A stretch of DNA of 64,000 nucleotides, taken from an uncultured delta proteobacterium. GTDB lineage: Bacteria > Desulfobacterota > Desulfarculia > JACQYL01 > CAWGVV01. Positions 3,167 through 23,963 of this stretch are shown piece by piece. Location: NCBI GenBank assembly GCA_963826125.1, contig CAWGVV010000002.1, forward strand, positions 873,964 to 937,963. Direction: 5' to 3'. Below the pieces are notes generated by a model, which had not been told where the DNA came from, searched no databases, and worked only from the letters and a program-made list of their open reading frames with translations. Position numbers and translations under genes: made by a program. How positions within the stretch are numbered: position 1 is the stretch's first letter; each line of letters opens with the position of its first letter.

Positions 3167-3490
3167 ACGTCCCCGACATCGAAGCTCTCCGGATTTCCCG
3201 GAACAACGCGCCGGCCCGTCAACGGTACAAAGAACCTGTCGAAACACCACTGCAAGCGTTGCGCCCGCCTGAAACAACCATCTCGGCATGCGATCGAGAT
3301 TTATCGGCCTGTTCGCACCCTTTCCGCTCCTGAAAACGAAAATGTCGGGTTCCGTAGCATCGTCCCGCATCCACTCCTCAAGCCATCCCGTGAGCTTCTT
3401 CCCATAAAAGATGGTCGATGGATGGTTTCACGGTGTTTTATGTTTTTCGGGTCGATTATGGCGGTTGAGGTGTGTCGGGCCTATCTTGGC

Positions 3491-5497: not shown

Positions 5498-5513
5498 GGG
5501 TAAAAACTCCTCT

Positions 5514-6038
5514 TCAGGCTTTCTTGAACAGCAGGGCCGCCGCCCGGATCATACGCGACACGGCCGCCACTCCCACCAGAGCCATGCTGACGGGAATCAC
5601 GGATTTTATGATCCAGCGGTAGGGGAGCCCCAGCGGGGAATCCGAACTTTCGTTCAGATGGTAGGAACTCTGTACGAAATCCAGACCGTGGATGAAAAGG
5701 ACGACGACAAGCGGCAGGAGCAGAAAAAGGATTCCCAGGAATTCGACCCATTCCTTCCCTCGGGGCGAAAACTTCCGGTGGGCCAGATCCAGCCGGATGT
5801 GGGAATCCGTCACGATTCCGTACGATATGCCGAACATCACGCACACGGCGTACAGGTGCCATTGGAGTTCTTCCAGGGACACCATGCCTTTTCCGAATAC
5901 ATAGCGCAAAATCACCTGGATCACGATGACGAGGACCGTGGCCACGTTCAGCCAGGCGATGGTCTGACCGATGCGGAGCACGAACCGGTCGAGGGACACA
6001 CAGACGGCGGGGGGTGCTTTGGGTTCCATAGTATTCAA
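5514..6038 (-). CDS. TRAP transporter small permease (DctQ family)
   Basis: 174 aa, four hydrophobic helices, position between DctP and DctM genes. Confidence 0.8.
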   Translation of the reverse strand: MNTMEPKAPPAVCVSLDRFVLRIGQTIAWLNVATVLVIVIQVILRYVFGKGMVSLEELQWHLYAVCVMFGISYGIVTDSHIRLDLAHRKFSPRGKEWVEFLGILFLLLPLVVVLFIHGLDFVQSSYHLNESSDSPLGLPYRWIIKSVIPVSMALVGVAAVSRMIRAAALLFKKA

Positions 6039-6132
6039 TCGTTTCGGATGCTGTTGGTTTTATCACACGGCGGGATAAAGTGGCGGGACCCGAATGGGTC
6101 CCGCCGTCTTTCGTATCTGGCCGTACGTTTCG

Positions 6133-8624: not shown

Positions 8625-8715
8625 GTTCGTTCTCCATCTTGGACCGAAACGGTCGATTTATCTCTCGGAAGGGAAAAAGGCCGCTTCGAGCCCGCCGATT
8701 CCCTCCGGCGCTTCT

Positions 8716-10239
8716 TCACATCACCGGACCCAGGTGCCACGGTACGAATTCGTTGTCGCCGAATCCCAGCAGTTCGCTCTTGGTCTTTTTCCCGGAAGCG
8801 GTGTCCACGATGAGGCGGAACACCTCTTCCCCCAGCGCTTCCAGGCCGGTGTCGCCGTCCAGGACCGCTCCGCAGTTCACGTCCATGTCCCGGCTCATGC
8901 GCCGGTAGGTGGCGGTGTTGGAACAGAGCTTAATGGTCGGGACCGGTTTGAAACCGCAGACGCTCCCCCTGCCGGTGGTGAATACGGCTACGTTGGCGCC
9001 TCCTGCTATCATTCCGGTTACCGATACCACATCATACCCCGGAGTGTCCATGAAGATCAGCCCTTTGGCGGTGACGGGTTCCGCATACCGGTACACTTCC
9101 ACCAGGTCGGTGGTGCCCCCCTTGGCCGCCGCTCCCAGCGATTTTTCCAGGATGGTGGTGAGCCCTCCCGCTTTGTTGCCCGGCGAGGGGTTATTGTTGA
9201 TTTCCGCTCCGTGGAGGCGGGTATATTCCTCCCACCAGCGGATGCGCTCGATGAGCTTTTCGGCCGTTCGGGGAGACGCGGCCCGTCGGGTGAGGAGGTG
9301 TTCCGCGCCGTAGATTTCCGGCGTTTCGGCCAGGATCGACGTCCCGCCGCTCCGAACCACCCAATCGGCGGCCGCCCCCAGGACCGGGTTGGCGGTGATG
9401 CCCGAATAGCCGTCGGACCCCCCGCACTCGAGGGCCACCACCAGTTCGCCCGCCGGCACCGGGGTCCGGTGCGCTTCGTCGGCACGGGGGAGCATCTCCC
9501 GAACGATTTCCACGCCCAGCCGGACGGTTTCCTCGGTACCCCCTTCGTCCTGGATGTTGAGCATGCGCAACGTTTCGCTTTCCTTGAGGTTCATGTTGCA
9601 CGACAGACATTCCAGGTGGTTTCCCTCGCACCCAAGCCCCACCAGGATGACGGCGGCGAAATTGGGGTGGCGTATCCAGCCGGCCAGGGTGCGCTGCAGC
9701 AGGTCGAACCCTTCCCCCGCCATGGCGCACCCGGCTCCGTGTTTGATCGCCACCACGCCGTCGATGTTGGGATAGCGGGAAAGCTCCTCGGAGGTGAAAC
9801 GGTCGGCGATGAACTGCACCACGCTGGCGGAGCAGCTCACCGTGGCGATCACTCCGATGAAGTTGCGGGTACCCGTTCGGCCGTCGGGCCGGACGAACCC
9901 CTGAAAGGTCGGCACGTCCTTCAGCGGAAGATATTCCGTGGGGCGCGCGTCGCGGCCGATGCCGTAGTCGCGGGCGAAGTCGTGCAGGACGACGTTGTGC
10001 ACGTGCACGTGGTCGCCCGGTTCGATGGGCCGGGAGGCGAACCCGATGGTCTGGCCGTATTTCACCACGGGATCGCCCAGCGGGATCCGTTTGACTGCCA
10101 CTTTGTGCCCTGCCGGAACGGCCGACCGGCAGGTGATGTTTTCAGCGGTAACGGCCGTTCCGGACGGGATTTCGGCGATGGCCACGGCCACGTTGTCGGT
10201 GGGGTGGAGCCGAATGACGAGAGGATGGATTTCATTCAT
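8716..10239 (-). CDS. UxaA/GarD-family dehydratase (altronate / galactarate dehydratase-like) with N-terminal SAF domain
   Basis: N-terminal SAF-like region (LHPTDNVAVAIAEIPSGTAV), then UxaA-family core; 508 aa from the ATG at MNEIHP. Confidence 0.8.
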   Translation of the reverse strand: MNEIHPLVIRLHPTDNVAVAIAEIPSGTAVTAENITCRSAVPAGHKVAVKRIPLGDPVVKYGQTIGFASRPIEPGDHVHVHNVVLHDFARDYGIGRDARPTEYLPLKDVPTFQGFVRPDGRTGTRNFIGVIATVSCSASVVQFIADRFTSEELSRYPNIDGVVAIKHGAGCAMAGEGFDLLQRTLAGWIRHPNFAAVILVGLGCEGNHLECLSCNMNLKESETLRMLNIQDEGGTEETVRLGVEIVREMLPRADEAHRTPVPAGELVVALECGGSDGYSGITANPVLGAAADWVVRSGGTSILAETPEIYGAEHLLTRRAASPRTAEKLIERIRWWEEYTRLHGAEINNNPSPGNKAGGLTTILEKSLGAAAKGGTTDLVEVYRYAEPVTAKGLIFMDTPGYDVVSVTGMIAGGANVAVFTTGRGSVCGFKPVPTIKLCSNTATYRRMSRDMDVNCGAVLDGDTGLEALGEEVFRLIVDTASGKKTKSELLGFGDNEFVPWHLGPVM

Positions 10240-10303
10240 GGAGTACACCCGTGTTTGAAAGTTTCCGCAACACGGTCTTTCCGCTCCATGGGGCGGTGTT
10301 TCC

Positions 10304-11788
10304 TCAGACCCAACGGGCGGTGACCGTCTTTTCGTCCATGAACAACCGCATGGACGCCAGACGCGATTTGGCGGTTCCCATGAAGGAATCCCGCCGCGAA
10401 CCGAGGGGGAAGAACGCGTACGGCTGGGCCACTCCCACGTTTACCCCGACGTTGCCGACATTCACTTCCCGCGTGAACCTGCGGGCGTTCTTCATGTTGC
10501 CGGTCATGATGCAGGCCGAGTGGCCCAAATTCGTTTTGGTATTGATCCACTCGATAGCCTGTTCCAGGCTGTCCCCCCGAATGAGCGCCGCCGTCGCGCC
10601 GAAGGCCTCTTCCTTGGCCATCGGCATGTCCACGGTGACGTTCTCGAGAATCGTGGGAGCCATGAAATGTCCGTGCGGGTAATCATCCGGCATGGCGGAC
10701 CTGCCGTCAAGGACCATTGTGGCGCCGTCCCGGAGCGACTTCTCGATCCACAGCAGGACTTTTTCCTTCCCGTCTTCCGTGGTGTACGGTCCCATTTCCG
10801 TTTTTTCGTCGAGGCCGTAGCCGAGGCGCATGGATTTCGCCGCGGCCGTCAGCTTGGCTTTCATCTCGTCGTAAATGTTTCCTATCACGACGACGTTGTC
10901 AACGCCCAGGCATCTCTGGCCGGTCATGCCGAAGCAGGCCCGCTGCAGCCAGGGGATGCAGGCGTCGATGTCCGCATCCGGCATGATGACCACGTGGTTC
11001 TTGCCGTTGCCGTTGATCGAGGAGGTTTTTCCCAGCTTCCCGCAGGTTTCGAAAAGCTCGTGCCCGGCGCGGTTGGAACCGATGAATCCCACCCCCTTGA
11101 TTTCCGGTTGTTCCAGAATGGTCTTGTTGATTTTCCGGCCACCATGCACCAGGTTCAGCACTCCGGGAGGGAACCCGACTTCCTGGGCGACGCGCATGAT
11201 CGCGTCGGCCGCGATGGGGTCCTGCCGGCTCGGACTCACGACCACGGTGCACCCGGCGGCCAGGGCATAGGGGACGAAGGAAGACCACGCGTGCATGGGG
11301 ACGTTGCCGGGGGTGACAATCAGGAAGGCTCCCAGCGGTTCCCACATCAGGTATTCGTCGATGCCGTTGGCCAGCTGATCCTGATACTCGTTTTGTTTCA
11401 CCAGCCCGTAGGCGGCGGAGCAGGCGGATTCGATGTTTTCGATCACCCGGCTGACCGAACCTCTGGATTCGCCGATGGTCCTTCCGTGGTCCTGGGTGAG
11501 AATACGGCAGAGGTGCTCATGGTTGTCTTCAAACGCGTGGTGCAGTTTGAACAGGAGTCTGGCCCGTTCCCGCAGGGGAAAATCCTTCCATGACTGAAAC
11601 GCCCGGTGGGCGCTGTGAACTGCTGCCAGCGCCTCATCCGTCGTGGCCTGGGGAAACTCCGCGATCGGTTGGCCGGTGGCGGGATTCGTGCTGACCTCGA
11701 CGTCGGTGGATGCGGAATCCACCCACGCTCCATCGACGAGAAATTGCAGCTTTCCATAATGTGCTCGTACTTCCGACAAAACGGCCAT
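10304..11788 (-). CDS. aldehyde dehydrogenase, methylmalonate-semialdehyde dehydrogenase (CoA-acylating)-like
   Basis: ALDH fold with catalytic Cys region FGMTGQRCLGVDNVVV and the MMSDH-type C-terminal signature GNVGVNVGVAQPYAFFPLGSRRDSFMG. Confidence 0.8.
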   Translation of the reverse strand: MAVLSEVRAHYGKLQFLVDGAWVDSASTDVEVSTNPATGQPIAEFPQATTDEALAAVHSAHRAFQSWKDFPLRERARLLFKLHHAFEDNHEHLCRILTQDHGRTIGESRGSVSRVIENIESACSAAYGLVKQNEYQDQLANGIDEYLMWEPLGAFLIVTPGNVPMHAWSSFVPYALAAGCTVVVSPSRQDPIAADAIMRVAQEVGFPPGVLNLVHGGRKINKTILEQPEIKGVGFIGSNRAGHELFETCGKLGKTSSINGNGKNHVVIMPDADIDACIPWLQRACFGMTGQRCLGVDNVVVIGNIYDEMKAKLTAAAKSMRLGYGLDEKTEMGPYTTEDGKEKVLLWIEKSLRDGATMVLDGRSAMPDDYPHGHFMAPTILENVTVDMPMAKEEAFGATAALIRGDSLEQAIEWINTKTNLGHSACIMTGNMKNARRFTREVNVGNVGVNVGVAQPYAFFPLGSRRDSFMGTAKSRLASMRLFMDEKTVTARWV

Positions 11789-12133
11789 GGGGTAAATCTC
11801 CTCTCTTTCGGGGGTTGTTGATCCTGCGTAACCGCTCGTCGATTCTTCGACGGGGAAACGACGTTGTTTTCAAAGTGCGGTTTTCCCGCTTCCCTTTCCG
11901 GTGGAACGGACGGGTGTCACCTTCCGCCGGCTGTGCCGTCCATTGGGCGAAACACGATGCTCGACCGAAAGAAGTACCGGTCCTTCCCGAAAAAGACTCT
12001 TCATCCTGCACCTCTACCGGTCCGGAGACGAGCCTTTGGGGGATAGGGGGGAGGTGTTCAATTCGACGCCGCGGAAGCGGCGGCGACGGGAGAAATTCTG
12101 TTGTGGCTTTGCCATAGGGAGCCTGCGGAACAT

Positions 12134-13477
12134 TTACATTTTTGACGGTAGATAGGAAACGAGGCCGGGAAACAGGACGAGGAACATCAGCGCGGCAAAC
12201 AGAATAAAAATAAACGGGATCGTGCCGCTGATGATGGTTTTGATCGGCACGTCCGTTACCGCTTTTATGACGAACAGATTCAACCCCACCGGGGGCGTGA
12301 TCATGCCGATTTCCACCGACAGGGTGGAAACGACGCCGATCCACAGGGGATCGAAGCCAAGGGCGGTAAACGTGGGAAAGAGAAACGGGATTGTCATGAC
12401 GATCATGCTGGTGGGATCGAGGATGCATCCCAGGACGAGCCACAACACCCAGGTCAAAATGAAAAACACCCAGCGGTTGACGCCGAACCCGACGATCAGA
12501 TTGGCCAGTCCGTGTGCGATTCCCAGGAACGTCACGACGTAACTCAACGAGAGTCCGGCGAAAATGAGGAACACGATCATGACGCTGATTCTGGCGCTGC
12601 CCGCGCAGATGTCGAAAAACGTGGAAAGGCGCAGCCTGCCCAATAGGATGATTATCAGGAAGGCGCCCGTAGCCCCCACTCCGGATGCCTCCGTCGCCGT
12701 GGCCATGCCGGTGTACAAGGTACCCAGCACAAGAACGATCAGCACCATCGGCGGAACGATGGTTTTCAGATCGGCCCAAAATTCTCCGGAAGCACTCTTG
12801 CCCGAATCGGCCGTTTCACGAACGGCTCGTTCGGCCGTCCGCTTCGGCGCCTTTTCCACGCCGACGAGGCTAGGATTGAAAGTCGCCCGGAGAACGATGA
12901 AGACACACAACAGGAAGCTTATCAGCAACCCGGGAAGTATTCCGGCGATGAAAAGCTTGGCGATGGACGTTTCCGTGATGATCCCGTACACGACGAACGC
13001 CATGCTGGGCGGTATCATGATGCCGAGCGTGCCGCCGGCGGCGATCACGCCGGTGGAAAAGCCGGGATCGTAGCCCCGGTCCACCATCTCGTTCACCGAT
13101 ATCCGGCCGATCGCCGCCGCGGTAGCCGGACTCGACCCGCATAACGCCGCGAATATGGTGCAGGCCATGGTCGCACTTACGGCGAGTCCGCCCTTCAGCC
13201 GGCTCATCCATTTGCTCAATACCGTGAAGATATCGGTGGCGATACCGCCCTTGGCCAGAATTTCGGCCATCAGAATGAAGAGCGGAGCAATCAGCATCGT
13301 CTGGCTGGTGGCCATGCTGAAGGCAATGGTGCCGATGGGATACAACTGATCGGGTGAAAGAAAGATCACCGTACACAACACCGCCACGAATCCCAAGCCG
13401 AAAGCAACGGGAGTTCCCATTGAAAGAACGATTAACAGGATGAGCACTATGACAAAAACCAGCATTCCGATACCCAT
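12134..13477 (-). CDS. TRAP transporter large permease (DctM family), second system
   Basis: 447-aa polytopic DctM-type protein following DctQ/DctP genes. Confidence 0.9.
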   Translation of the reverse strand: MGIGMLVFVIVLILLIVLSMGTPVAFGLGFVAVLCTVIFLSPDQLYPIGTIAFSMATSQTMLIAPLFILMAEILAKGGIATDIFTVLSKWMSRLKGGLAVSATMACTIFAALCGSSPATAAAIGRISVNEMVDRGYDPGFSTGVIAAGGTLGIMIPPSMAFVVYGIITETSIAKLFIAGILPGLLISFLLCVFIVLRATFNPSLVGVEKAPKRTAERAVRETADSGKSASGEFWADLKTIVPPMVLIVLVLGTLYTGMATATEASGVGATGAFLIIILLGRLRLSTFFDICAGSARISVMIVFLIFAGLSLSYVVTFLGIAHGLANLIVGFGVNRWVFFILTWVLWLVLGCILDPTSMIVMTIPFLFPTFTALGFDPLWIGVVSTLSVEIGMITPPVGLNLFVIKAVTDVPIKTIISGTIPFIFILFAALMFLVLFPGLVSYLPSKM

Positions 13478-13498
13478 AATGGAATCTCCCCAAGCCGA

Positions 13499-14002
13499 TC
13501 ACAGATATTCTTCACCTTTTTGCAGCAGATCACGTATGATGAACACTACGATTGCGGTCATCAGAACGCATCCCACAAGCATACCGGCGTAGAGATAAAC
13601 GACGGGTATCTGAATAACCGCCAGCGTCAGCTTGTTGAGGTGCAGGGCGTCCTTGATAAAGGATAAGGTCGTGCCCAGAAGAACGAGAATGTATACCAAG
13701 GAGAACGCGTAGCCCGCGACGGCCAGAAAGCAGCCGTACGACTTTCCGCATTTGCTTGAGATTACGTTTCTGATGAAATCGACCGACACGTGCGTTTTTT
13801 CCTGGATCGCCGAAGCAGTGCCCAGGAAGAAGGCCCAGATGAGCAGGTACGTGGATACGTCCAGGGTCCAGGAAGTCGGGTGGGAGAAAACGTTCCGGGC
13901 GATCGTTTCGAATGCACAGAGAAAGCTGATGAGGAAGATGATGATTCCTCCGATGACCGCCGCCACGTGGTTGACCTTGCGAACGAATGAGAAAGACGTC
14001 AT
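13499..14002 (-). CDS. TRAP transporter small permease (DctQ family)
   Basis: 167 aa, four TM helices, between DctP and DctM. Confidence 0.85.
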   Translation of the reverse strand: MTSFSFVRKVNHVAAVIGGIIIFLISFLCAFETIARNVFSHPTSWTLDVSTYLLIWAFFLGTASAIQEKTHVSVDFIRNVISSKCGKSYGCFLAVAGYAFSLVYILVLLGTTLSFIKDALHLNKLTLAVIQIPVVYLYAGMLVGCVLMTAIVVFIIRDLLQKGEEYL

Positions 14003-14073
14003 GTTGCGCTTCCTTCCTCATAAAGGCGAAGCGGCCGGTGGAAGAGAACGTTCGCACCGGCCACTCCCCGGAA

Positions 14074-15096
14074 TCACTTCACCGCTCTGAGCGCCTCCAT
14101 CAATGCAACGCCTTCAGGGCCGGCAATGGGCGTGATCTTTTCCCACAACGGTTCCCTCACCTTCCTGAACTGTTCGTTCTGTTCCTTTGTCAGGTGATAC
14201 AGTTTGCAACCCGAGTCCTGTACCGCCTTTTCAAACTGCTGCTCCATCTCCGACGCGTTCTGTATGTTGAAGTTCATCCACTTCTTGACTGACCGTTGCA
14301 CCGCTTCCTGCTGGCTCGCATTCAGGCTTTTCCATGCCTTGTCGCTCATCATCATGCCCCGGAACATCTCCGGGATTTCGGTGACCGTGACGAAGGGAGC
14401 CGATTCATACAGCTTCAGGGCTCCGGCCAGCTGCCAGCCGATGTACCCGACGTCCAGGGTGCCCCTGCCGAGGGCGGTGGGAAGATCGCGCAAGGGGACC
14501 GTAATGGGGCTTCCTCCCCACATCATGATCGCTTCCCCGCCCCATTTGCCAGGGGTACGCACGGTGGCGCCCTTGAAATCCTCGGGGCAGGTAACGAGTT
14601 TTCCGAACCGTTTTATCCCCAGAAAGGTCATGGTGCCCGCATCGTCCAGGCCGAGGTATTTGATGCCGTATTTTGCGAAAATTTTTTCAACGACGGGACG
14701 GGTGACTTTATCCACTTCCAGGTAGTGATTTCCGGGATAAGCGCCGGGTACTTCAAAGGGGGTTAATTCCTTCATGGTGGGACTGAGATAGGCTACGAAA
14801 AAGTGCCCGATATCGACGGTACCCCGTGTGACGGCCTCAAGGATGTCGTGGTCCGAAATGAGCGATCCGGCGGGAAAGGTTTCCACCTTCACCTGCCCTT
14901 GGGTTTCCTCACTCACCGTTTTGGCGAAAAACTCGTATCCTCGTCCCTGTATCCCGGTTGCCGGCGGTGCGTAGCTGAATTTCAGAACCAGAGGTTTTTG
15001 CGCCATGCCTGTCGATGCGCATACCAGCAGAATGAATGAAAAGCACATCAGTACCGTTATGAATCCTCGCGCCCGCTTTTTGCCCTCGATGCCCAT
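14074..15096 (-). CDS. TRAP transporter substrate-binding protein (DctP family), secreted
   Basis: N-terminal hydrophobic signal (FITVLMCFSFILLVCASTGMA) then DctP-type binding protein; first gene of the P-Q-M triplet. Confidence 0.85.
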   Translation of the reverse strand: MGIEGKKRARGFITVLMCFSFILLVCASTGMAQKPLVLKFSYAPPATGIQGRGYEFFAKTVSEETQGQVKVETFPAGSLISDHDILEAVTRGTVDIGHFFVAYLSPTMKELTPFEVPGAYPGNHYLEVDKVTRPVVEKIFAKYGIKYLGLDDAGTMTFLGIKRFGKLVTCPEDFKGATVRTPGKWGGEAIMMWGGSPITVPLRDLPTALGRGTLDVGYIGWQLAGALKLYESAPFVTVTEIPEMFRGMMMSDKAWKSLNASQQEAVQRSVKKWMNFNIQNASEMEQQFEKAVQDSGCKLYHLTKEQNEQFRKVREPLWEKITPIAGPEGVALMEALRAVK

Positions 15097-15309
15097 GTTT
15101 CCCCTCCTCGAAAGTTTCGTGCTGCGGAAAAATCAGTTGAGTCGAATCAGGAGCTTGGAACGAAACTTCTCGACCGATACCTCCTTTCTTTTTCACGGAT
15201 TCACCCCCCTTTTCGCGTTCGCCGGGAGACGATCGACGGGGGATGAATCCTAAGGCCGGAACAGCCGTTGATTTGCATGCAAACCGTTTTAAGCGCTTTT
15301 TTTCGTGCA

Positions 15310-15879
15310 CTAGGGTCTTTTCAGTACTTCTTCCAGCGTGAGTCCGCCGACGCGGGGCAAAGGCCTGCCCGAATCGGAAAAAGCGACGGCCACCATAATC
15401 TCGTCGCCCCTCGGAGCGTCGTGGATTCTGACTTCCATGGTGTCGAAATGGGACCGGACCCGCGCTTCATCCTTATAGTGGAGCGGCACGTCGATCGGTG
15501 TCCCTGCGGGGCCTATTTTCTTGGCCTGGGGGATGAGGGCCTTTCCCGCGCCCAAAACGTCGCGCATCGTGAGCCCCAGTTTGGGATGCAGTATGGCTCC
15601 CGTATGTTCATATTCCCCGTCGAGGCCGACGATGGCCCCTTTCCCGAAGTTGTGTATGTCCTTGGGCTCGACTTGCAGCGTATCCAGGGCGCGCTGCGTC
15701 AGTATGGTGCCCAGCTCCGCGCCCATTTCAATGAGTTCGCCGAGGTCCTCCACGTACCGCCCCGCAAAGGGGTTTTTCAGCACGGCCACGACGGCGATTT
15801 TTCGGTGACCCGGAGTGATTTCCCTGTCCATCTCCATGCAGACTTCTTCGATCATCGTGGCGAATTTCCGAATCTTCAT
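15310..15879 (-). CDS. amino-acid-synthesis family protein (PF06684-like), function unknown
   Basis: ~190 aa from ATG MKIRKFATMIEEV, with AAGGAGAA RBS 8 nt upstream; matches my recollection of the AA_synth family (…NPFAGRYVEDL…GLDGEYEH…MEVRIHDAPRGDEI…); the longer track ORF adds a Lys/Arg-rich leader with no RBS. Confidence 0.65.
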   Translation of the reverse strand: MKIRKFATMIEEVCMEMDREITPGHRKIAVVAVLKNPFAGRYVEDLGELIEMGAELGTILTQRALDTLQVEPKDIHNFGKGAIVGLDGEYEHTGAILHPKLGLTMRDVLGAGKALIPQAKKIGPAGTPIDVPLHYKDEARVRSHFDTMEVRIHDAPRGDEIMVAVAFSDSGRPLPRVGGLTLEEVLKRP

Positions 15880-15940
15880 GATTGATTTATTCTCCTTTTT
15901 TCCGGCTGATGGGAGTTGAAAACGAATATCCGTTCCGGAG

Positions 15941-17503
15941 TTATTCCCGATGCTTTTCCTTTTCCGCCGCGACTTCCTCAATCACCTCGGACAGCGGCCG
16001 GATACTATCAACGTGTCCTCCGATTGCCGCGTAGTCTTTCAAGGTCATGGTGTATTCCATGGGGACCACGATGGCGGGCGTCGGGACCCAATGATAGAAG
16101 CCCGTTTGCACGTGCTCCACGTCCACCACGAACGTGATTCCTCCGCCCGGCATGATAAAAGTCGGCGCACCGCCGATCGTTAGCCGCGCCTTGCGCTCCT
16201 TGATGGCTTCGGTCAGTTTCAGGGGCTTACCGGTGATGCCGGAACGGGACGCGCCTCCCCCGCCGCCCACGAACATGGCCGACACCCGCGATTTCTCGCA
16301 TACCGACTGCAGTTCGTTCACCGCCGCGAGTACCCGGGGAGTGGGATCCATGGGGACGAATTCGCCGTTTTCGAACCGGAGCAGGGCATGGTATCCTCCG
16401 GTGGGCTCGGTCACGAGCAGCGTCGTTCCGGGCCGGATCGTGCTCCTGCCCATGTCGATGACGTCCACGGGATTCATGGTGTCGGTTCCCCCGATGCCGT
16501 TCCCCTTGACGCCGAAATACCGCCCCGGGGTGGATTCCCGATACTTCAAAACAATGCCCGAGGGCGGAACCTTGAAATAACGGCCCGTGGCGTGGGCGGA
16601 AAACACGCCGGTGAGCTGGTGGTCCAGAATGATGACTTCGTCGGCGATGCCGTTGAACAGCGGCGAGAAAACGCCGACGGTGGCGCTGCCGCATCCCGCG
16701 GCGATTTTTTCACGTACGGCTCCGTTGATGACCGGCGGCTTCGCCACTTCAAGCACCAGCCGCGCCCCGCCCTCGACGTTCAACGAGACTTTTTTCCGGT
16801 TCGCGATGTCCGTGATGGCCTTGACGGAGAACATTCCGTTCTCACCGCCCGTAAGATGCAGTCCTCCAAGGGAAAGCACCGGGGCATTGTATTCTTCCGT
16901 GGTCACCATCCCAATGCGCCGCTTGAGGTAGGTAACCGCGGCGCCTTCTTCCCCGATGGGCAGATCGGTGTCGATCTTCACCTTTAGTCCGTTGACCGTC
17001 AGCGGGCATTCCGTCACGCACGTAACGCAATCCACGCCGTCCACTTTGTCCTGGACGATGTACGGTGCGGGCCGGAAATCGGGCGAAGTGGTCCCGGCCC
17101 CCATTCCCGTGATGAGGGGCTTTTGGATCGCGGGGTGGTATTCGGGGGGAAGAAGATCGTGGATGGGACTCTGCAGGACCAACGGAATCTTCCTCGTGAC
17201 GGTTCCCCCGTCGTTCGTATAGCGCAGACAGGCTCCGGTTTTTCCCGGTTGGATCGCGCAGCCCACGGGACAGGATGTGCAGATTACGGCGTTCGGATCG
17301 GGGAAAATCTCCCTGACCAGAGCATGTTCCGGGCAGACTTTGACGCACGCGCCGCAGTTGACGCAGTTTTCGTTCGTTCGAGCTTTCCTGTTCACCACCT
17401 CGATTGCATGAACCTGACAGATCAGCTCGCAGATTTTGCAACCGGCACATTTTTCCGAATCGATTTTGATCACAGCCAGCTCCTCATTAGCGGAACGGAT
17501 CAC
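15941..17503 (-). CDS. iron-sulfur protein: N-terminal 2x[4Fe-4S] ferredoxin domain plus large C-terminal domain; architecture resembles 6-hydroxynicotinate-reductase-type enzymes as I recall them
   Basis: CxxCxxCxxxCP twice (CAGCKICELICQ, CVNCGACVKVCP) plus further Cys clusters (CTSCPVGC, CVTCVTECP); 520 aa; specific enzyme assignment is a guess. Confidence 0.6.
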   Translation of the reverse strand: MIRSANEELAVIKIDSEKCAGCKICELICQVHAIEVVNRKARTNENCVNCGACVKVCPEHALVREIFPDPNAVICTSCPVGCAIQPGKTGACLRYTNDGGTVTRKIPLVLQSPIHDLLPPEYHPAIQKPLITGMGAGTTSPDFRPAPYIVQDKVDGVDCVTCVTECPLTVNGLKVKIDTDLPIGEEGAAVTYLKRRIGMVTTEEYNAPVLSLGGLHLTGGENGMFSVKAITDIANRKKVSLNVEGGARLVLEVAKPPVINGAVREKIAAGCGSATVGVFSPLFNGIADEVIILDHQLTGVFSAHATGRYFKVPPSGIVLKYRESTPGRYFGVKGNGIGGTDTMNPVDVIDMGRSTIRPGTTLLVTEPTGGYHALLRFENGEFVPMDPTPRVLAAVNELQSVCEKSRVSAMFVGGGGGASRSGITGKPLKLTEAIKERKARLTIGGAPTFIMPGGGITFVVDVEHVQTGFYHWVPTPAIVVPMEYTMTLKDYAAIGGHVDSIRPLSEVIEEVAAEKEKHRE

Positions 17504-17527
17504 TCGCCGGGTGGTTCGATCATCCGA

Positions 17528-18193
17528 TCAACACCCACATGTGCGCAGCGCGATGACGCGGGCGGGAGCGGCTTCACAGTCGGCAATCTTCAGGGGCAGG
17601 CACACGAAGAACATCCTGCCCTGCACGGCGTCCAGATTGACGAGGCACTCGACCAGGGGAATACCCGCCCCCAGAATGATGTGATGGGAAGGATGGGTCC
17701 GGTCCGAAGCCCTTCCGCCCGCCCGGTTGAGCGGATCGAGAGAAGGCATGTCGACGCCCAGACATTTGATTCCGCGGGCCACGAGCAGATGGGCGGCTTC
17801 CGGGGCAATGGTGCAGAAGCCCGCCGGGTCCGGGCACTTTTCAAATCCGGTGTTCAGGATCGCCACGTCGTTCTTCCGGACGTCCCCGGCCGCCTTTTCC
17901 AGGTCTTCCACCGTGATGACGCTGCCCGGCGCCTTATACTTCAGGTCCACCACCACGCCTTCCCCGACCAGCCGGTCGAGGCCCGTTTCGTGAATGTTTC
18001 CCCCGCCGTCGATTACGTGCCGGGGGGCATCCACATGGGTTCCCGCGTGCACGACCGTTTCATACTTCGTGACTTGGATGCCGTTCTCGTCGTGGTTCCG
18101 AATTCTCGTCAACGTCGGTTGGGGAATACCCGGGAAAAGACGCATTCCCTGTTCAATACGCATGCTGAGGTCGATAATTCCGTCATGTTTCAT
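17528..18193 (-). CDS. cyclase-family metal-dependent hydrolase (kynurenine-formamidase/KynB-like)
   Basis: HxGTHxDxPxH metal-binding motif (VVHAGTHVDAPRH), ~220 aa. Confidence 0.8.
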   Translation of the reverse strand: MKHDGIIDLSMRIEQGMRLFPGIPQPTLTRIRNHDENGIQVTKYETVVHAGTHVDAPRHVIDGGGNIHETGLDRLVGEGVVVDLKYKAPGSVITVEDLEKAAGDVRKNDVAILNTGFEKCPDPAGFCTIAPEAAHLLVARGIKCLGVDMPSLDPLNRAGGRASDRTHPSHHIILGAGIPLVECLVNLDAVQGRMFFVCLPLKIADCEAAPARVIALRTCGC

Positions 18194-18277
18194 TGGACAC
18201 TCTCCCTTATGGTTTCACCGATGGCATTTCGGTTAAAGGCAGTGGAGGAAAGACGGGTCCCGCCTCCCCGCGAGTCG

Positions 18278-18982
18278 CTATTTTTCCTTGGAACCGTTCG
18301 CCAGCCGAACCGATGCACTATCCGCTTTCTCTCGCGAATTGCGGAGGTTCACCATGAATCTGTTCATGGATTCGAGAATATGGCGTTCGAAATGTTCCTT
18401 TATGTTGTTTTTGTCTCGTTCCACCAGGGCATCCACCAGGACGTCATGTTCCGTAATGATGTCCGAAACCTTCTTTCTGGAGCCGGCGTTCGTTGCGGCG
18501 AGCATGCGGGTGTGCGCGGAAATGGTTTTCCAACTGAGGTGAAGTCTCTGGTGATCGGCGAGCACGAAAATTTCTTCGTGGAATTGCATGTGCAGTTCGA
18601 AGGTGTCCGCAACGTCGGCGCTGTCGTTCATTCCATGGATAATGCTTCTCAACCTGTCGACGTCGTACGGTTGAAGAATATCCGACGCCAGAGCCGCCGC
18701 ATGGCATTCCAGGAGAGCCCGCAAGGTATAGATTTCCTCAATGTCCTTTTCGGTGAAGCTCTTTACGTAGGTTCCCCGCCTCGGATAGGTGACGGTCAGA
18801 CCTTCTCGTTCCAGTTCCACGAGGGCTTCCCTTACCGGGGCGCGGCTTATCCCAAGCGATTGGGCTATTTCGGATTCGAGAACTCTTTCGTCGGGCTTGA
18901 GTTCACCGGAAAGAATTTGGTGCCTCAGAACCCGCACCACCTGTTTTGAAAGGTTCGCGCTGTCGAGCTTCAGCAGTTTCAT
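18278..18982 (-). CDS. GntR/FadR-family transcriptional regulator (wHTH + FCD domain)
   Basis: wHTH region LKPDERVLESEIAQSLGISRAPVREALVELEREGL then FCD-type helical domain; ATG at MKLLKL with GGAGG upstream preferred over the TTG track start. Confidence 0.75.
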   Translation of the reverse strand: MKLLKLDSANLSKQVVRVLRHQILSGELKPDERVLESEIAQSLGISRAPVREALVELEREGLTVTYPRRGTYVKSFTEKDIEEIYTLRALLECHAAALASDILQPYDVDRLRSIIHGMNDSADVADTFELHMQFHEEIFVLADHQRLHLSWKTISAHTRMLAATNAGSRKKVSDIITEHDVLVDALVERDKNNIKEHFERHILESMNRFMVNLRNSREKADSASVRLANGSKEK

Positions 18983-19348
18983 CTGAAGACGGAGGCCTCC
19001 TGTTGTGGTTATTTCGTCGAATGTCGACAATCGACAAATAGCCGCCCGAACCTGTTCGTGTCAAGAAAAATCGGGAAACATTCCCCATAAATCGGAGCAA
19101 GTGAAAATTTGCGCAAGCATGCGGAACGAAATCCGCCCATTCCCGGACGTTCGTCCCTCATTCAGGGTGAGGAATCATGACGTCCTGCAAACGCCCGCGG
19201 AGATCGGGGATGCGAAGGGGGACGCGCCGTTTCTTGCCACGGGTCTCTTTTGCCGGAATGACGAAACGGAGGCGCGAGGAGGATGCTCCGACCCCCTCCG
19301 GGGGGCACGGTGGATTACGCGCGACAGCCGGGCGTCCTGACGGCAACC

Positions 19349-19390: not shown

Positions 19391-19445
19391 CGTCGTGGTT
19401 TCACCTTTTTGTTTTTCCGATCGCGGAAGGCGATCTGCCGCCGTG

Positions 19446-21664: not shown

Positions 21665-21953
21665 CGGGCTATTTCGTTGTTAAGCTATTGAAAATAATAT
21701 TATATTTTCTCTACTCATGCCGATTCGCCATTGCCGGCTGTTGCATTTTTCAACACCGGCCGTGCCGTGGCGGGCGGGGAAAAGGAAGAAAAGCCCCATT
21801 CCTCCCGACAAAATGGTCGTTGCAGATGGCAACAGAGGCCATGTTGCAAAAAGCAACGCATTGACAGAAGGAGAAAAGACGTGGAAAATTCAAATGCTTC
21901 GCGGTCCGGACAAGAAAAAGGAAAACGCCGCGGGCGGAGAGGGGGACAGGCGC

Positions 21954-23963
21954 ATGTTCTTCAAGAAAACGTCCGAGACCGGCACCGAGAAGGAAGAGGA
22001 GAGCCAGGAAATACAGGACCTCCGTAAGTCGGTGGAACAGGCGCGCATGCCCGACCGGGTGAAGACGATCGCCGGGAAGGAACTGGAGCGGTTGGCCAAG
22101 ACCGACCCCTCCCTGGCCGAGTACGGCATAGGACTGAACTACCTGGAATTCATCCTCTCCCTGCCCTGGGAGAAGTCGTCCAAGGACAACCTGGACTTGT
22201 CCCGCGCCGAACGGATCCTCGACGAGGAACACTACGCGCTGGCTCCGGTCAAGGAGCGGGTGCTCGAATACCTGGCGTCCAACATAAAGATCGGGTTGAA
22301 ACCCACCCGCATGATGGTGGTCGACGACGAAAAGATCGCCCTGGAGAACGTGGCCTACGCCCTACGCAAGGAAGGCCATGAGGTGCATACGGCGGAAAAC
22401 GGCCAGGAGGCACTGGACATTCTCCGGCAGTTCGATTTCGACCTGGTGGTGACCGACCTCAAAATGCGGAACGTGGACGGTATGCAGCTGCTGGAGCGGG
22501 TCAAGGCGGAATCGCCCGAGACGGAACTCATTCTGGTCACCGGGTACGCCACCGTGGACACCGCCGTCGACGCTCTAAAGAAAGGCGCGGCCCAGTATCT
22601 GCCCAAACCGTTGAACCTGGATACCCTGCGGCAGTCGGTGAACGAGATCCTCGAACAGCGGCGGAAGGTTCACGTATCCCAGGGGCCAGTGCTCTGCTTT
22701 GCCGGACCTCCGGGCACGGGCAAAACGTCCATCGGCCGATCCATCGCCAAGGCCCTGGAACGGAGTTTCATCCGCGTGTCGGTGGCGGGACTCCGGGACG
22801 AAGCGGAAATGCGGGGACACCGCCGCACCTACGTGGGGGCCATGCCGGGAAGGATTCTTTCCGAAGTCCGGCGCATAGGGGTAAACAATCCGGTGTTCAT
22901 GCTGGACGAACTGGACAAAATCGGTCAGGACTTCCGGGGAGACCCCGCGTCGGTCCTACTCGAGGTGCTGGACCCCGAACAGAACAAACGCTTCCTGGAC
23001 CATTACGTGGACATTCCCTTCGATCTGTCCCGCGTGATGTTCATCACCACGGCCAATGCCATCGAACGGCTGTCCCGACCTCTTCTGGACCGGATGGAGG
23101 TCATCCACTTTTCCAGCTACACCTTGCGGGAAAAGTCGTCCATCGCTTCGCATTATCTGGTTCCGCGCCAGCTCAAGGCCAACGGGTTGTCTCCCCGTGA
23201 GGTGGAGTTTTCAAGGGAGGCGCTGGACAAGATCATCGGCGACTACACGGACGAAGCGGGCCTCCGGAACCTGGAGCGGGAAGTGGGGAGTGTCTGCCGC
23301 AAGGTGAACCGCCTCCTGTTGCAGGACCGCCTCAGCCTTCCGAAAAAGGTGGAAGCGGCCGACGTGGAAGCGCTCCTGGGACCGCCGCGGTTTTCCCGGC
23401 TGTCCGCTTCCGATGCACGCGTTGCGGGCGTCACCACGGGGCTGGTATGGACGGAACACGGCGGCCACGTCATTTATGTTGAAACGGCCCGGATGAAGGG
23501 CCAGGGAAAGCTCATCATGACCGGTTCCCTGGGGGAGGTGTTGAAAGAGTCCGCCCAGACCGCCCTCAGCCACATTCGCAGCAACGCAGCCGAATTCGGC
23601 ATCGATCCCGAATTTTTCGAAACGAGCGACGTCCACGTCCACATTCCGGCCGGCTCGATCCCCAAGGACGGTCCCTCCGCGGGGGTCACCATCGCCATGG
23701 CCCTGGTTTCGTTGCTCACCGGCAAGCCGGTGCGCAAGGGGGTCGCCATGTCCGGGGAGCTCACCCTGAGCGGCCGGGTGCTGCCCGTGAGCGGCTTGAG
23801 GGAAAAACTGCTGGCGGCGCAGCGTGCGGGTATCTCCACGGTGATCCTGCCCGCGGCCAACGCCACGGAGATCGCCGCTTTGGAACCCGACGTGCGTACC
23901 GCAACGAACATTGTCCAGGTGGAAAACTTCCGGGGAGCGGTACAAAACGCTTTGTCGGAATAG
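21954..23963 (+). CDS. lon: ATP-dependent Lon protease lacking the Lon N-domain, with a response-regulator receiver (REC) domain inserted between the conserved pre-AAA helix and the Walker A motif
   Basis: …PVKERVLEYLA | REC (MMVVDDEKIA … DLVVTDLKMRNVDG … LVTGYAT … KKGAAQYLPKP) | GPVLCFAGPPGTGKTS … MLDELDK … Lon_C with KDGPSAG Ser and downstream Lys; start at ATG MFFKK (GGGGGA RBS), alternative ATG at 21894. Confidence 0.8.
   Translation: MFFKKTSETGTEKEEESQEIQDLRKSVEQARMPDRVKTIAGKELERLAKTDPSLAEYGIGLNYLEFILSLPWEKSSKDNLDLSRAERILDEEHYALAPVKERVLEYLASNIKIGLKPTRMMVVDDEKIALENVAYALRKEGHEVHTAENGQEALDILRQFDFDLVVTDLKMRNVDGMQLLERVKAESPETELILVTGYATVDTAVDALKKGAAQYLPKPLNLDTLRQSVNEILEQRRKVHVSQGPVLCFAGPPGTGKTSIGRSIAKALERSFIRVSVAGLRDEAEMRGHRRTYVGAMPGRILSEVRRIGVNNPVFMLDELDKIGQDFRGDPASVLLEVLDPEQNKRFLDHYVDIPFDLSRVMFITTANAIERLSRPLLDRMEVIHFSSYTLREKSSIASHYLVPRQLKANGLSPREVEFSREALDKIIGDYTDEAGLRNLEREVGSVCRKVNRLLLQDRLSLPKKVEAADVEALLGPPRFSRLSASDARVAGVTTGLVWTEHGGHVIYVETARMKGQGKLIMTGSLGEVLKESAQTALSHIRSNAAEFGIDPEFFETSDVHVHIPAGSIPKDGPSAGVTIAMALVSLLTGKPVRKGVAMSGELTLSGRVLPVSGLREKLLAAQRAGISTVILPAANATEIAALEPDVRTATNIVQVENFRGAVQNALSE

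What the first reader, a model, noticed from the sequence alone, without database searches (positions are those of the whole stretch)
12134..19030. GntR-regulated cluster: cyclase-family hydrolase + large [4Fe-4S] protein + AA_synth-family protein + TRAP transporter, possibly N-heterocyclic acid catabolism
Minus-strand order is FadR/GntR regulator, KynB-like cyclase-family hydrolase (HxGTHxDxPxH), 520-aa protein with N-terminal 2x[4Fe-4S] ferredoxin domain and more Cys clusters, PF06684-like 'amino acid synthesis' protein, then DctPQM. The Fe-S protein's architecture is what I recall for 6-hydroxynicotinate-reductase-type enzymes, and cyclase-family enzymes hydrolyse ring or formyl amides. With the MMSDH-like ALDH just downstream, this resembles a reduce, ring-open, oxidise logic for a pyridine or pyrimidine-type carboxylate. 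The AA_synth family has no established function. The assignment is speculative.
Basis: inference. Interest (0 to 1): 0.55.

Follow-up and report, generated by a model that had tools for sequence, protein, structure and literature searches.

The report
Variant pyridine-ring reduction and opening gene cluster
This is a conserved gene cluster of anaerobic sulfate-reducer-type bacteria that most likely imports a hydroxylated pyridine carboxylic acid (6-hydroxynicotinate or a close relative), reduces the ring, opens it by hydrolysis and oxidises the resulting aldehyde; it is a variant of the known anaerobic nicotinate pathway with a different ring-opening enzyme.

Summary

- **Fe-S protein.** It belongs to the family that RefSeq and JGI name 6-hydroxynicotinate reductase (Hnr). 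It has 8+4 invariant cysteines and a ~440-aa catalytic part with no solved structural relative.
- **Two clades in 90 homologous loci.**
  - The canonical clade has Mo-hydroxylase, amidohydrolase, Hnr, ApbE-like and AA_synth, which is the layout of the nicotinate cluster. A paralogue of this type exists in the window's own genome.
  - The window's clade never has the ApbE-like gene. The hydrolase directly upstream is either the amidohydrolase or, as here, a cyclase-family metallohydrolase.
- **Conservation.** The whole unit (GntR, cyclase, Hnr-like, AA_synth, DctPQM, ALDH) recurs at 69-86% identity in an unrelated 102-kb metagenome contig.
- **ALDH.** It is MMSDH-like, keeps both carboxylate-binding arginines, and is 64-78% identical to the ALDHs of canonical clusters. 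This points to 2-formylglutarate as the shared intermediate.

The reduce, ring-open, oxidise reading is supported. The exact substrate and the role of AA_synth remain inferred. I rate it a new variant of a known kind, of moderate interest.

The parts
18278..18982 (-). GntR-family regulator with FCD (FadR C-terminal) effector domain; the ORF can extend to 19030
   Evidence: Pfam GntR 7.5e-17 and FCD 4e-19. Called as 234 aa in L001. Orthologues at 67-70% identity lead the same cluster in L084, L089, L090 and L091.
17528..18193 (-). Cyclase-family (PF04199, KynB-like) metal-dependent amidohydrolase; proposed lactam ring-opening hydrolase replacing enamidase
   Evidence: Pfam Cyclase 7.6e-30. The arylformamidase equivalog TIGR03035 scores only 88.7 bits against a cut-off of 223. 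PDB neighbours are 1r61, 8hmo, KynB and isatin hydrolases. All homologues at 62% identity or more that have flanking sequence lie in the same cluster as the Hnr-like gene, directly next to it in all but L084 and L092.
15941..17473 (-). 6-hydroxynicotinate-reductase-like Fe-S (flavo)protein. N-terminal 2x[4Fe-4S] ferredoxin domain, then a third 4-Cys cluster site (C65/C68/C72/C82), then a ~440-aa catalytic part of unsolved fold
15310..15879 (-). AA_synth / DUF1185 (PF06684) protein, the conserved partner of Hnr-like reductases
   Evidence: Pfam 1.2e-68. PDB 2qtp 1.3e-64. Adjacent to the reductase in 8 of 11 contigs of this clade and in 57 of 65 evaluable canonical loci.
14074..15096 (-). TRAP transporter solute-binding protein DctP
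   Evidence: Pfam DctP 3e-45. 66-77% identical orthologues in L084 and L089, but only 22-25% identity to the DctP of canonical clusters.
13499..14002 (-). TRAP small permease DctQ
   Evidence: Pfam DctQ 2.9e-18. 63-74% identity in L084 and L089.
12134..13477 (-). TRAP large permease DctM
   Evidence: Pfam DctM 2e-85; TIGR00786 scores 322 bits against a cut-off of 268. 70-77% identity in L084 and L089.
10304..11788 (-). MMSDH-like (probably CoA-acylating, decarboxylating) aldehyde dehydrogenase; the proposed oxidise step
   Evidence: Best NCBIfam match is TIGR01722 MMSDH at 366 bits, below the 448.5 cut-off. All the nearest PDB chains are MMSDHs. The alignment to 1t90 keeps the Arg in '...vsRvienie' and the 'gqRC' Arg-Cys pair. 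86% identical and in the same position in L089; 64-78% identical to ALDHs in 26 canonical loci.

Best explanation
This is a GntR-controlled catabolic unit for a carboxylated 2-pyridone. The most likely substrate is 6-hydroxynicotinate, or an N-substituted 6-oxo-pyridine-3-carboxylate. It is a hydroxylase-free variant of the anaerobic (Eubacterium barkeri / Azorhizobium type) nicotinate pathway.

Proposed steps:
1. The TRAP transporter imports the acid (inferred).
2. The Hnr-like enzyme takes electrons from reduced ferredoxin through its two [4Fe-4S] clusters, a third cluster and a flavin. It reduces the C4=C5 bond of the pyridone, giving a 1,4,5,6-tetrahydro-6-oxonicotinate-type enamide (by homology).
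3. The cyclase-family metallohydrolase hydrolyses the lactam N1-C6 bond, doing the job of enamidase (inferred from gene replacement at the same position and from published precedents).
4. The AA_synth protein converts the unstable ring-opened enamine or 2-formyl-dicarboxylate into the aldehyde form used next, acting as a tautomerase or deaminase type helper (the most speculative step).
5. The MMSDH-like ALDH oxidatively decarboxylates 2-formylglutarate with CoA to glutaryl-CoA, CO2 and NADH (inferred from conserved substrate-carboxylate arginines and from orthology to ALDHs of canonical clusters).
For: **Family.** More than 7,700 homologues were found. 17 of the 120 listed are named 6-hydroxynicotinate reductase by JGI or NCBI. 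Plasmid homologues at 39-43% identity mostly carry the same name. The 8+4 invariant cysteines fit the two [4Fe-4S] plus one [2Fe-2S] clusters reported for the E. barkeri enzyme (Alhapel 2006 abstract, from my own knowledge).

**Canonical relatives (79 loci; counts, gene order).**
- Mo-hydroxylase large subunit present in 56/64 evaluable loci.
- Amidohydrolase directly upstream in 60/72.
- ApbE-like gene directly downstream in 66/72.
- AA_synth present in 57/65.
- This layout matches the proteobacterial nicotinate cluster, described as the first three pathway steps plus a transporter plus two conserved unknown proteins (PMC3511419).
- The window's own genome has such a paralogue, P0038/L082.

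**Window clade.** It is separate in the NJ tree. It has no ApbE-like gene. The hydrolase is a cyclase in 8 contigs and an amidohydrolase in 2, directly upstream of the reductase except in L084 and L092, where other cluster genes intervene.

**Synteny.** The full unit including the ALDH recurs in L089 at 69-86% identity.

**Aldehyde step.** An ALDH or an AFOR recurs in this clade.

**ALDH type.** It is MMSDH-like with both arginines and the catalytic Cys conserved. It is 64-78% identical to canonical-cluster ALDHs.

**Cyclase precedents.** HpoH and PKC open a pyridine ring at N1-C6, and isatin hydrolase cleaves a cyclic amide (PMC6214936, PMC6117287, PMC9304392).

**AA_synth context.** Outside Hnr clusters it again sits between a hydrolase and an ALDH. 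Its homologue TgnF is reported to stimulate semialdehyde oxidation (PMC7913881).
Against: - I made no direct alignment to the characterised E. barkeri Hnr, because its sequence was not obtainable here. The link rests on database names, cluster layout and the 42% identity figure in PMC3511419.
- The 64-kb window contains no Mo-hydroxylase. The substrate must therefore arrive already hydroxylated, or the hydroxylase is encoded elsewhere.
- The window's TRAP binding protein is not orthologous to that of canonical clusters (22-25% identity), so the imported compound may differ.
- The relative L084 does carry Mo-hydroxylases, but of a different subfamily (31-35% identity), which hints at another substrate.
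- The cyclase is KynB-like ('LVE' at the I(L/I)E position). This type is so far known for linear formamides.
- No ApbE-like maturase is adjacent, although E. barkeri Hnr has a covalent flavin.
- The role of AA_synth is untested.
Confidence: 0.62

Rival explanations
1. The machinery is the same, but the substrate is a different N-heterocycle rather than 6-hydroxynicotinate. One candidate is an N-methyl-2-pyridone-5-carboxylate derived from trigonelline or NAD breakdown products. The N-substituted lactam would explain why enamidase is replaced by a cyclase-type hydrolase, with release of an amine instead of ammonia. Another hydroxylated pyridine or pyrimidine carboxylate is also possible.
For: - The genome already has a canonical nicotinate-type paralogous cluster.
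- The reductase forms a distinct clade.
- The TRAP binding protein is unrelated to that of canonical clusters (22-25% identity).
- L084 links the same unit to Mo-hydroxylases of a different subfamily.
- The hydrolase type differs from the canonical one.
Against: The ALDH is 64-78% identical to ALDHs of canonical clusters. This argues for the same aldehyde intermediate, and so for the same carbon skeleton; only an N-substituent would be compatible. No gene for methylamine handling lies nearby in the window.
Confidence: 0.22
2. The conserved unit ends at DctM. On this view the ALDH belongs to the downstream UxaA-type dehydratase, LarA-like isomerase and second TRAP module, acting as a 2-ketoglutarate-semialdehyde-type dehydrogenase of a sugar-acid pathway.
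For: - A 345-bp gap separates DctM from the ALDH, whereas only 55 bp separate the ALDH from the UxaA-like gene.
- The second-best NCBIfam match of the ALDH is alpha-ketoglutaric semialdehyde dehydrogenase at 278 bits.
- No strong terminator occurs before 4087-4052.
Against: - In L089 the ALDH (86% identity) follows DctM in the same way, and no UxaA gene follows it.
- Orthologous ALDHs sit inside 26 canonical Hnr clusters.
- UxaA and LarA homologues are absent from all 96 other related loci.
- The best matches are MMSDHs with the carboxylate-binding arginines conserved.
Confidence: 0.1
3. The cluster is unrelated to heterocycle reduction. The cyclase would be a kynurenine formamidase, AA_synth would work in amino-acid synthesis, and the Fe-S protein would be a generic electron-transfer subunit.
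For: The best NCBIfam hit of the cyclase is arylformamidase. The family name 'amino acid synthesis' and the JCSG context argument point the same way (PMC2954203).
Against: - The arylformamidase score of 88.7 is far below the cut-off of 223.
- No tryptophan or kynurenine genes are present in the window.
- The Fe-S protein has a ~440-aa conserved non-ferredoxin domain with many invariant residues.
- That protein is tied to Mo-hydroxylase and amidohydrolase genes in about 80 loci.
- The 'amino-acid' inference for DUF1185 rested on neighbouring branched-chain-type ABC transporters. Such transporters also flank Hnr clusters.
Confidence: 0.03

Closest known systems
Eubacterium barkeri nicotinate fermentation cluster (Hnr 6-hydroxynicotinate reductase EC 1.3.7.1 plus enamidase; Alhapel et al. 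2006)
   Same: The logic is the same: ferredoxin-dependent reduction of a 2-pyridone carboxylate, followed by hydrolytic C-N ring opening to a 2-formyl dicarboxylate (PMC9304392). The Fe-S protein has the long form with an N-terminal 2x[4Fe-4S] domain plus four more invariant cysteines. This matches the reported cofactor set (my own knowledge of the abstract).
   Different: The window has no nicotinate dehydrogenase. It has no enamidase; a cyclase-family hydrolase is present instead. The aldehyde is oxidised by an MMSDH-like ALDH rather than reduced to 2-(hydroxymethyl)glutarate, and there is no B12-dependent branch. Direct sequence identity to E. barkeri Hnr was not measured.
Proteobacterial / Thermodesulfobacteriota nicotinate clusters (Azorhizobium caulinodans type; PMC3511419; canonical loci L004-L081, L082, L088)
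   Same: They share the Hnr-like reductase plus AA_synth core. An orthologous ALDH (64-78% identity) occurs in 26 of the canonical loci and a TRAP large permease in 26. The predicted route goes via 2-formylglutarate to a glutarate or glutaryl-CoA level product (Kitts 1992, my own knowledge).
   Different: Canonical clusters carry a three-subunit Mo-hydroxylase, an amidohydrolase and an ApbE-like (UPF0280) gene between the reductase and AA_synth. The window lacks all three. Its reductase is only 47-52% identical and lies in a separate clade.
Cyclase-family (PF04199) ring and amide hydrolases: HpoH / pAO1 'polyketide cyclase', isatin hydrolase, kynurenine formamidase
   Same: The fold and the HxGTHxDxPxH metal site are the same. 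HpoH and PKC are assigned hydrolysis of the pyridine N1-C6 bond, and isatin hydrolase cleaves a cyclic amide (PMC6214936, PMC6117287).
   Different: Those enzymes act in aerobic pathways on trihydroxypyridine, isatin or formylkynurenine. None has been linked to an Hnr-type reductase. The window enzyme is closest to the KynB/BsAHD subgroup and falls below the arylformamidase cut-off.
Trigonelline (tgn) cluster protein TgnF and coumarin cluster protein HcdD (DUF1185 members)
   Same: They belong to the same Pfam family. The context is the same: a hydrolase plus an aldehyde dehydrogenase in a heterocycle or aromatic-ring catabolic cluster. TgnF is reported to stimulate semialdehyde oxidation (PMC7913881).
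   Different: Plasmid-borne relatives in such non-Hnr contexts are only 39-43% identical to the window protein, and I could not compare the TgnF and HcdD sequences themselves. Those pathways are aerobic and oxygenase-based, and no mechanism has been established for any member.

Membership tests
6-hydroxynicotinate reductase (Hnr) family | Full-length homology to the characterised E. barkeri Hnr | not testable with these tools
   The E. barkeri sequence was not obtainable: the genome scan returned only the best 80 loci, the afdb50 library was unavailable and the paper is not held. Indirect support: the window protein is 39-43% identical over residues ~60-509 to plasmid proteins mostly named Hnr in their records. 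A Bradyrhizobiaceae protein from the same kind of cluster is 42% identical to E. barkeri Hnr (PMC3511419).
6-hydroxynicotinate reductase (Hnr) family | Cysteine ligands for two [4Fe-4S] clusters and one further Fe-S cluster | tested here: met
   C9, C12, C15, C19, C37, C40, C43 and C47, plus C65, C68, C72 and C82, are invariant in 60 sequences. The Fer4 domain covers residues 12-62.
6-hydroxynicotinate reductase (Hnr) family | Covalently bound flavin | not testable with these tools
   Canonical relatives have an adjacent ApbE-like gene in 66 of 72 loci, which fits flavin attachment. The window clade has none. The invariant C261-G262-S263-A264 motif is a candidate attachment site only.
6-hydroxynicotinate reductase (Hnr) family | Genomic association with nicotinate dehydrogenase (Mo-hydroxylase) and enamidase | tested here: not met
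   No Mo-hydroxylase or amidohydrolase homologue is present anywhere in the window. The paralogue P0038 in the same genome sits next to amidohydrolase, ApbE-like and AA_synth genes; its 4.6-kb contig is too short to show a Mo-hydroxylase.
Kynurenine formamidase / arylformamidase (TIGR03035) | Score above the equivalog cut-off | tested here: not met
   88.7 bits against a cut-off of 223.05.
Cyclase family PF04199 metallohydrolases | HxGTHxDxPxH metal-binding motif and domain match | tested here: met
   VHAGTHVDAPRH is present. Pfam gives 104 bits against a cut-off of 23. The motif is aligned with 1r61 and KynB structures.
CoA-acylating methylmalonate-semialdehyde dehydrogenase (TIGR01722) | Score above the subfamily cut-off | tested here: not met
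   366.3 bits against a cut-off of 448.5. It is the best-matching family, but the protein is not a certified member.
CoA-acylating methylmalonate-semialdehyde dehydrogenase (TIGR01722) | Catalytic Cys302 with Arg301 and Arg124 that bind the substrate's beta-carboxylate (residue roles from my own knowledge of B. subtilis MSDH studies) | tested here: met
   The alignment to 1t90 keeps 'vsRvienie' and 'gqRC'.
AA_synth / DUF1185 (PF06684) | Full-length domain match and similarity to solved members | tested here: met
   230.5 bits, covering profile positions 1-175 of 175. 2qtp 1.3e-64 and 3byq 1.8e-33.
TRAP transporter (DctPQM) | All three components adjacent | tested here: met
   DctP, DctQ and DctM Pfam matches; TIGR00786 is above its cut-off.

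The most novel reading that the evidence does not exclude
The window represents an undescribed branch of anaerobic pyridine-ring catabolism. In this branch a distinct Hnr-like reductase clade works with a cyclase-family lactam hydrolase instead of enamidase, and acts on a pre-hydroxylated or N-alkylated pyridone carboxylate, for example N-methyl-6-oxo-nicotinate from trigonelline or NAD breakdown. In the same reading the DUF1185 'amino acid synthesis' family is in fact a general enamine or 2-formyl-acid processing enzyme. It would couple ring-opening hydrolases to aldehyde dehydrogenases across heterocycle pathways.
Probability: 0.2. Interest if true: 0.65.

Novelty: new variant of a known kind. 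Interest (0 to 1): 0.45.

Why it matters
Anaerobic breakdown of pyridine vitamins and alkaloids is known biochemically from essentially one organism, E. barkeri. The data here show three things.

- **Abundance and diversification.** The Hnr-type reductase is very common in Thermodesulfobacteriota, with more than 7,700 sequence clusters. It has split into at least two clades with different accessory genes.
- **A testable function for DUF1185.** The link between the reductase and AA_synth, and more widely between hydrolase, AA_synth and ALDH, gives the first concrete, testable function for PF06684. That family has solved structures but no known role, and its name is probably misleading.
- **A broader role for cyclase-family enzymes.** Replacement of enamidase by a cyclase-family hydrolase would widen the known chemistry of that family to reduced pyridone lactams.

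The reductase's catalytic domain has no solved structural relative, so a structure would be new. None of this overturns current understanding; it extends a known pathway type.

Tried and rejected
- **Direct comparison with E. barkeri Hnr.** This was not possible. The genome scan kept only the 80 best loci, all 47-68% identical and almost all Thermodesulfobacteriota MAGs. The afdb50 fold library was unavailable. The Alhapel 2006 paper is not held.
- **Substrate from the binding protein.** The best PDB matches of DctP are weak (E about 1e-17), so no ligand can be inferred.
- **Riboswitches or RNA elements.** None was found in the cluster. The long DctM-ALDH spacer is not conserved with L089.
- **Operator search.** GGTGAAACC occurs only twice in the window, upstream of GntR and upstream of the cyclase. 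It is absent from the orthologous regions of L084, L090 and L091, so it is not established as an operator.
- **UxaA, LarA and the second TRAP as part of the pathway.** Rejected. They are absent from all related loci, and no UxaA gene follows the ALDH in L089.
- **Thr265 of the 'GSAT' motif as an ApbE-type flavinylation site.** Not supported as stated, because it is Ala in P0028.
- **Promoter and terminator scans.** Results were at background level, apart from one strong terminator after the second TRAP operon.

Full report
**1. What is in the window**

All genes are on the minus strand.

| Gene | Coordinates | Evidence |
|---|---|---|
| GntR+FCD regulator | 18278-18982 (ORF to 19030) | Pfam GntR and FCD |
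| Cyclase-family protein | 17528-18193 | PF04199, 7.6e-30; motif VHAGTHVDAPRH |
| Fe-S protein | 15941-17473 (ORF to 17503) | Fer4 domain at residues 12-62 only |
| AA_synth / DUF1185 | 15310-15879 | PF06684, 1.2e-68 |
| DctP, DctQ, DctM | 14074-15096, 13499-14002, 12134-13477 | Pfam matches |
| Aldehyde dehydrogenase | 10304-11788 | best family is CoA-acylating MMSDH |

- For the Fe-S protein, public gene calls use the GTG at 17473, which follows a GAGGAG Shine-Dalgarno sequence.
- The ALDH scores 366 bits against TIGR01722, below the 448.5 cut-off.

Further downstream on the same strand lie three more items:
- a UxaA/GarD-type dehydratase (8716-10248);
- a LarA-like nickel-pincer isomerase (7332-8624; NF052515 at 452 bits, above its cut-off of 400);
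- a second TRAP system (4118-7209).

The rest of the window is unrelated housekeeping, plus a urocanase/HutC pair. There is no Mo-hydroxylase, amidohydrolase or ApbE-like gene anywhere in the 64 kb.

**2. The Fe-S protein**

- A search of the large protein collection returned more than 7,700 homologues.
  - The 100% match lies on a 2.67-Mb contig.
  - 17 of the 120 listed relatives carry the JGI or NCBI name '6-hydroxynicotinate reductase'.
- Alphaproteobacterial plasmid homologues are 39-43% identical over residues ~60-509, and most are named the same in their records. They lack the N-terminal ferredoxin domain.
- Twelve cysteines are invariant in 60 aligned sequences.
  - Eight form the two CxxCxxCxxxC motifs.
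  - The other four are C65, C68, C72 and C82.
  - As I recall the Alhapel 2006 abstract, the E. barkeri enzyme has two [4Fe-4S] clusters, one [2Fe-2S] cluster and a covalently bound flavin, so the pattern fits.
- An AlphaFold model is confident (pLDDT 92.6, pTM 0.86).
- PDB sequence search, Pfam and NCBIfam give nothing beyond Fer4.

So the protein does not belong to any other characterised family.

I could not align it directly to the E. barkeri sequence. The link is indirect:
- the database names;
- the cluster layout described below;
- the published 42% identity between a Bradyrhizobiaceae cluster member and E. barkeri Hnr (PMC3511419).

**3. Comparative genomics: two clades**

I collected 80 loci from species-representative genomes. 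Contigs found through individual homologues and through the cyclase were added. I scored all of them by tblastn with the window's proteins and with the neighbours seen in L024 and L084.

*Canonical clade (79 loci, 47-52% identical to the window protein)*

The stereotyped order is [TRAP], [ALDH], Mo-hydroxylase small/medium/large subunits, amidohydrolase, reductase, ApbE-like protein, AA_synth.

| Feature | Loci with the feature / evaluable loci |
|---|---|
| ApbE-like directly downstream | 66/72 |
| Amidohydrolase directly upstream | 60/72 |
| Mo-hydroxylase large subunit present | 56/64 |
| AA_synth present | 57/65 |
| Cyclase | 0/79 |

- The Sagittula plasmid shows the same core with RefSeq names: Hnr, UPF0280 family protein, then two amino acid synthesis family proteins.
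- The window's own genome carries such a paralogue, P0038 (51% identity), flanked by amidohydrolase, ApbE-like and AA_synth genes.

*Window clade (63-77% identity)*

- It forms a separate branch in a neighbour-joining tree.
- In its 11 distinct contigs the ApbE-like gene is never present between the reductase and AA_synth.
- The hydrolase is one of two types. It sits directly upstream of the reductase, except in L084 and L092, where other cluster genes intervene.
  - A cyclase-family protein at 62-77% identity: window, L087, L089, L090, L091, L092, L002 and L084.
  - The enamidase-like amidohydrolase: L083 and L086.
- An aldehyde-oxidising enzyme recurs: an ALDH in the window, L089 and L083, and an AFOR in L084, L086, L002 and L092.

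*Synteny of the whole unit*

- L089, a 102-kb metagenome contig, reproduces the complete unit in the same order.

| Gene | Identity to window (%) |
|---|---|
| GntR | 69 |
| Cyclase | 77 |
| Reductase | 77 |
| AA_synth | 83 |
| DctP | 77 |
| DctQ | 74 |
| DctM | 77 |
| ALDH | 86 |

- No UxaA gene follows the ALDH in L089.
- UxaA and LarA homologues occur in none of the related loci.

The functional unit is therefore 10304-18982, one gene longer than the reported interval. The UxaA, LarA and second TRAP genes are a separate neighbour.

**4. Roles of the other components**

*Cyclase*
- Its nearest solved relatives are uncharacterised metal hydrolases (1r61, 8hmo), kynurenine formamidases and isatin hydrolases.
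- It is far below the arylformamidase equivalog cut-off (88.7 against 223).
- Published members of this family open a pyridine ring at N1-C6 (HpoH and the pAO1 'polyketide cyclase') or hydrolyse a cyclic amide (isatin hydrolase) (PMC6214936, PMC6117287, PMC9304392).
- The slot-for-slot alternation with the enamidase-like amidohydrolase, together with these precedents, is the basis for assigning it the lactam ring-opening step.
- One caveat: it carries the KynB-type 'LVE' motif, whose meaning is unsettled (PMC6117287).

*ALDH*
- All the closest PDB chains are CoA-acylating MMSDHs.
- The alignment with B. subtilis MSDH keeps the catalytic Cys and both arginines. From my knowledge of the MSDH literature, these arginines bind the substrate's beta-carboxylate.
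- 2-Formylglutarate, the product of enamidase (PMC9304392), is exactly such a 2-substituted malonate semialdehyde. The predicted reaction is 2-formylglutarate + CoA + NAD+ giving glutaryl-CoA + CO2 + NADH.
- The window ALDH is 64-78% identical to ALDHs inside 26 canonical clusters. The same carbon skeleton is therefore probably produced.
- That in turn points to 6-hydroxynicotinate, or an N-substituted derivative, as the substrate of the window's unit.

*AA_synth*
[quoted passage not shown] No function is known.
- Its 'amino-acid' label came from neighbouring branched-chain-type ABC transporters (PMC2954203). Such transporters also flank Hnr clusters.
- 389 plasmids carry a homologue but only 26 carry an Hnr homologue, so the family is broader than Hnr clusters.
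- In three sampled non-Hnr contexts it again sits with a hydrolase and an aldehyde dehydrogenase. One of these has a gene set that I take to resemble the trigonelline (tgn) cluster.
- The homologue TgnF is reported to stimulate semialdehyde oxidation by TgnE (PMC7913881).
- The most economical hypothesis is that AA_synth processes the unstable ring-opened enamine or 2-formyl acid into the ALDH substrate. This is inference only.

**5. What remains open**

Several observations leave room for a substrate other than 6-hydroxynicotinate, or for N-substituted pyridones:
- no hydroxylase is present in the window;
- the TRAP binding protein is not orthologous to the canonical one (22-25% identity);
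- a canonical paralogous cluster exists in the same genome;
- L084 carries Mo-hydroxylases of a different subfamily.

Other negative or inconclusive checks:
- The lack of an adjacent ApbE-like gene may mean the maturase of the paralogous cluster is shared, or that the cofactor chemistry differs.
- No riboswitch or conserved non-coding element was found.
- A 9-mer, GGTGAAACC, is unique to the two regions upstream of GntR and of the cyclase. It is not conserved in orthologous loci.

**6. Verdict**

- It is a new variant of a known kind: an Hnr-type pathway with a cyclase-family hydrolase, and without a hydroxylase or ApbE-like gene.
- Interest is moderate. The main value lies in testable functions for DUF1185 and for this cyclase subgroup, and in the scale and diversification of Hnr-type reductases in anaerobes.

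Noticed in passing
window 7332-10248 and 4118-7209 (minus strand): Directly downstream of the ALDH lie a UxaA/GarD-family dehydratase (SAF+GD_AH domains; galactarate dehydratase HMM at 381 bits, below its 731 cut-off), a LarA-like nickel-pincer-cofactor isomerase of 'group 22' (452 bits, above its cut-off of 400) and a second DctPQM system. This looks like a separate hydroxy-acid or sugar-acid module of unknown substrate. It is not conserved with the Hnr-type unit elsewhere.
   Followed up: partly
window 21717-23963 (+): A Lon protease carries a response-regulator receiver domain (residues 200-308) in front of the AAA+, lid and Lon_C domains. The receiver replaces or interrupts the usual N-terminal substrate-recognition region, which suggests phosphorylation-controlled proteolysis.
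   Followed up: no
window 18211-18219 and 19397-19405: The 9-mer GGTGAAACC, which resembles a FadR/GntR-type GT-N3-AC half-palindrome, occurs only twice in the 64-kb window on either strand. One copy is 17 bp upstream of the cyclase start; the other is ~415 bp upstream of the GntR start. It is not found in the orthologous regions of L084, L090 or L091.
   Followed up: partly
L024 11531-12379; L082 2559-3440; L088 10473-11357: Canonical Hnr clusters almost always encode an ApbE-like / UPF0280 protein between the reductase and AA_synth (66 of 72 loci). This would fit maturation of the covalently bound flavin reported for E. barkeri Hnr. I found no statement of this link in the papers I read. Within the invariant CGSA stretch of the reductase, Cys261 and Ser263 are candidate attachment residues; Thr265 is not invariant.
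   Followed up: partly
L088 (Sagittula stellata plasmid NZ_CP155730.1, 83310-102704): This alphaproteobacterial Hnr cluster has hydantoinase/oxoprolinase A and B subunits, a ferredoxin-NADP reductase, two tandem AA_synth genes and a Rieske oxygenase subunit, and no enamidase-like amidohydrolase. The ring-opening hydrolase may therefore be a third, ATP-dependent type. The Hnr there lacks the N-terminal ferredoxin domain.
   Followed up: no
L084 6328-6720: In the syntenic JGI contig a 130-aa remnant of an aldehyde dehydrogenase C-terminus sits between the cyclase and DctP. A tungsten-type AFOR with a small ferredoxin follows AA_synth. This looks like replacement of the ALDH by an AFOR.
   Followed up: no
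window 447-3799: A urocanase (minus strand) sits next to a GntR/UTRA (HutC-like) regulator and a small MJ1316-domain (RNA cyclic-end recognition) protein on the plus strand. No other histidine-utilisation genes are visible nearby.
   Followed up: no
L099 (Rhizobium beringeri plasmid NZ_CP140876.1, 224449-236985): An AA_synth homologue heads a GntR-regulated set: alpha/beta hydrolase, flavin reductase, LLM-class monooxygenase, aldehyde dehydrogenase, NIPSNAP protein and ABC transporter. From memory this matches the published trigonelline (tgn) gene set. It is a useful comparison point for the function of DUF1185.
   Followed up: no
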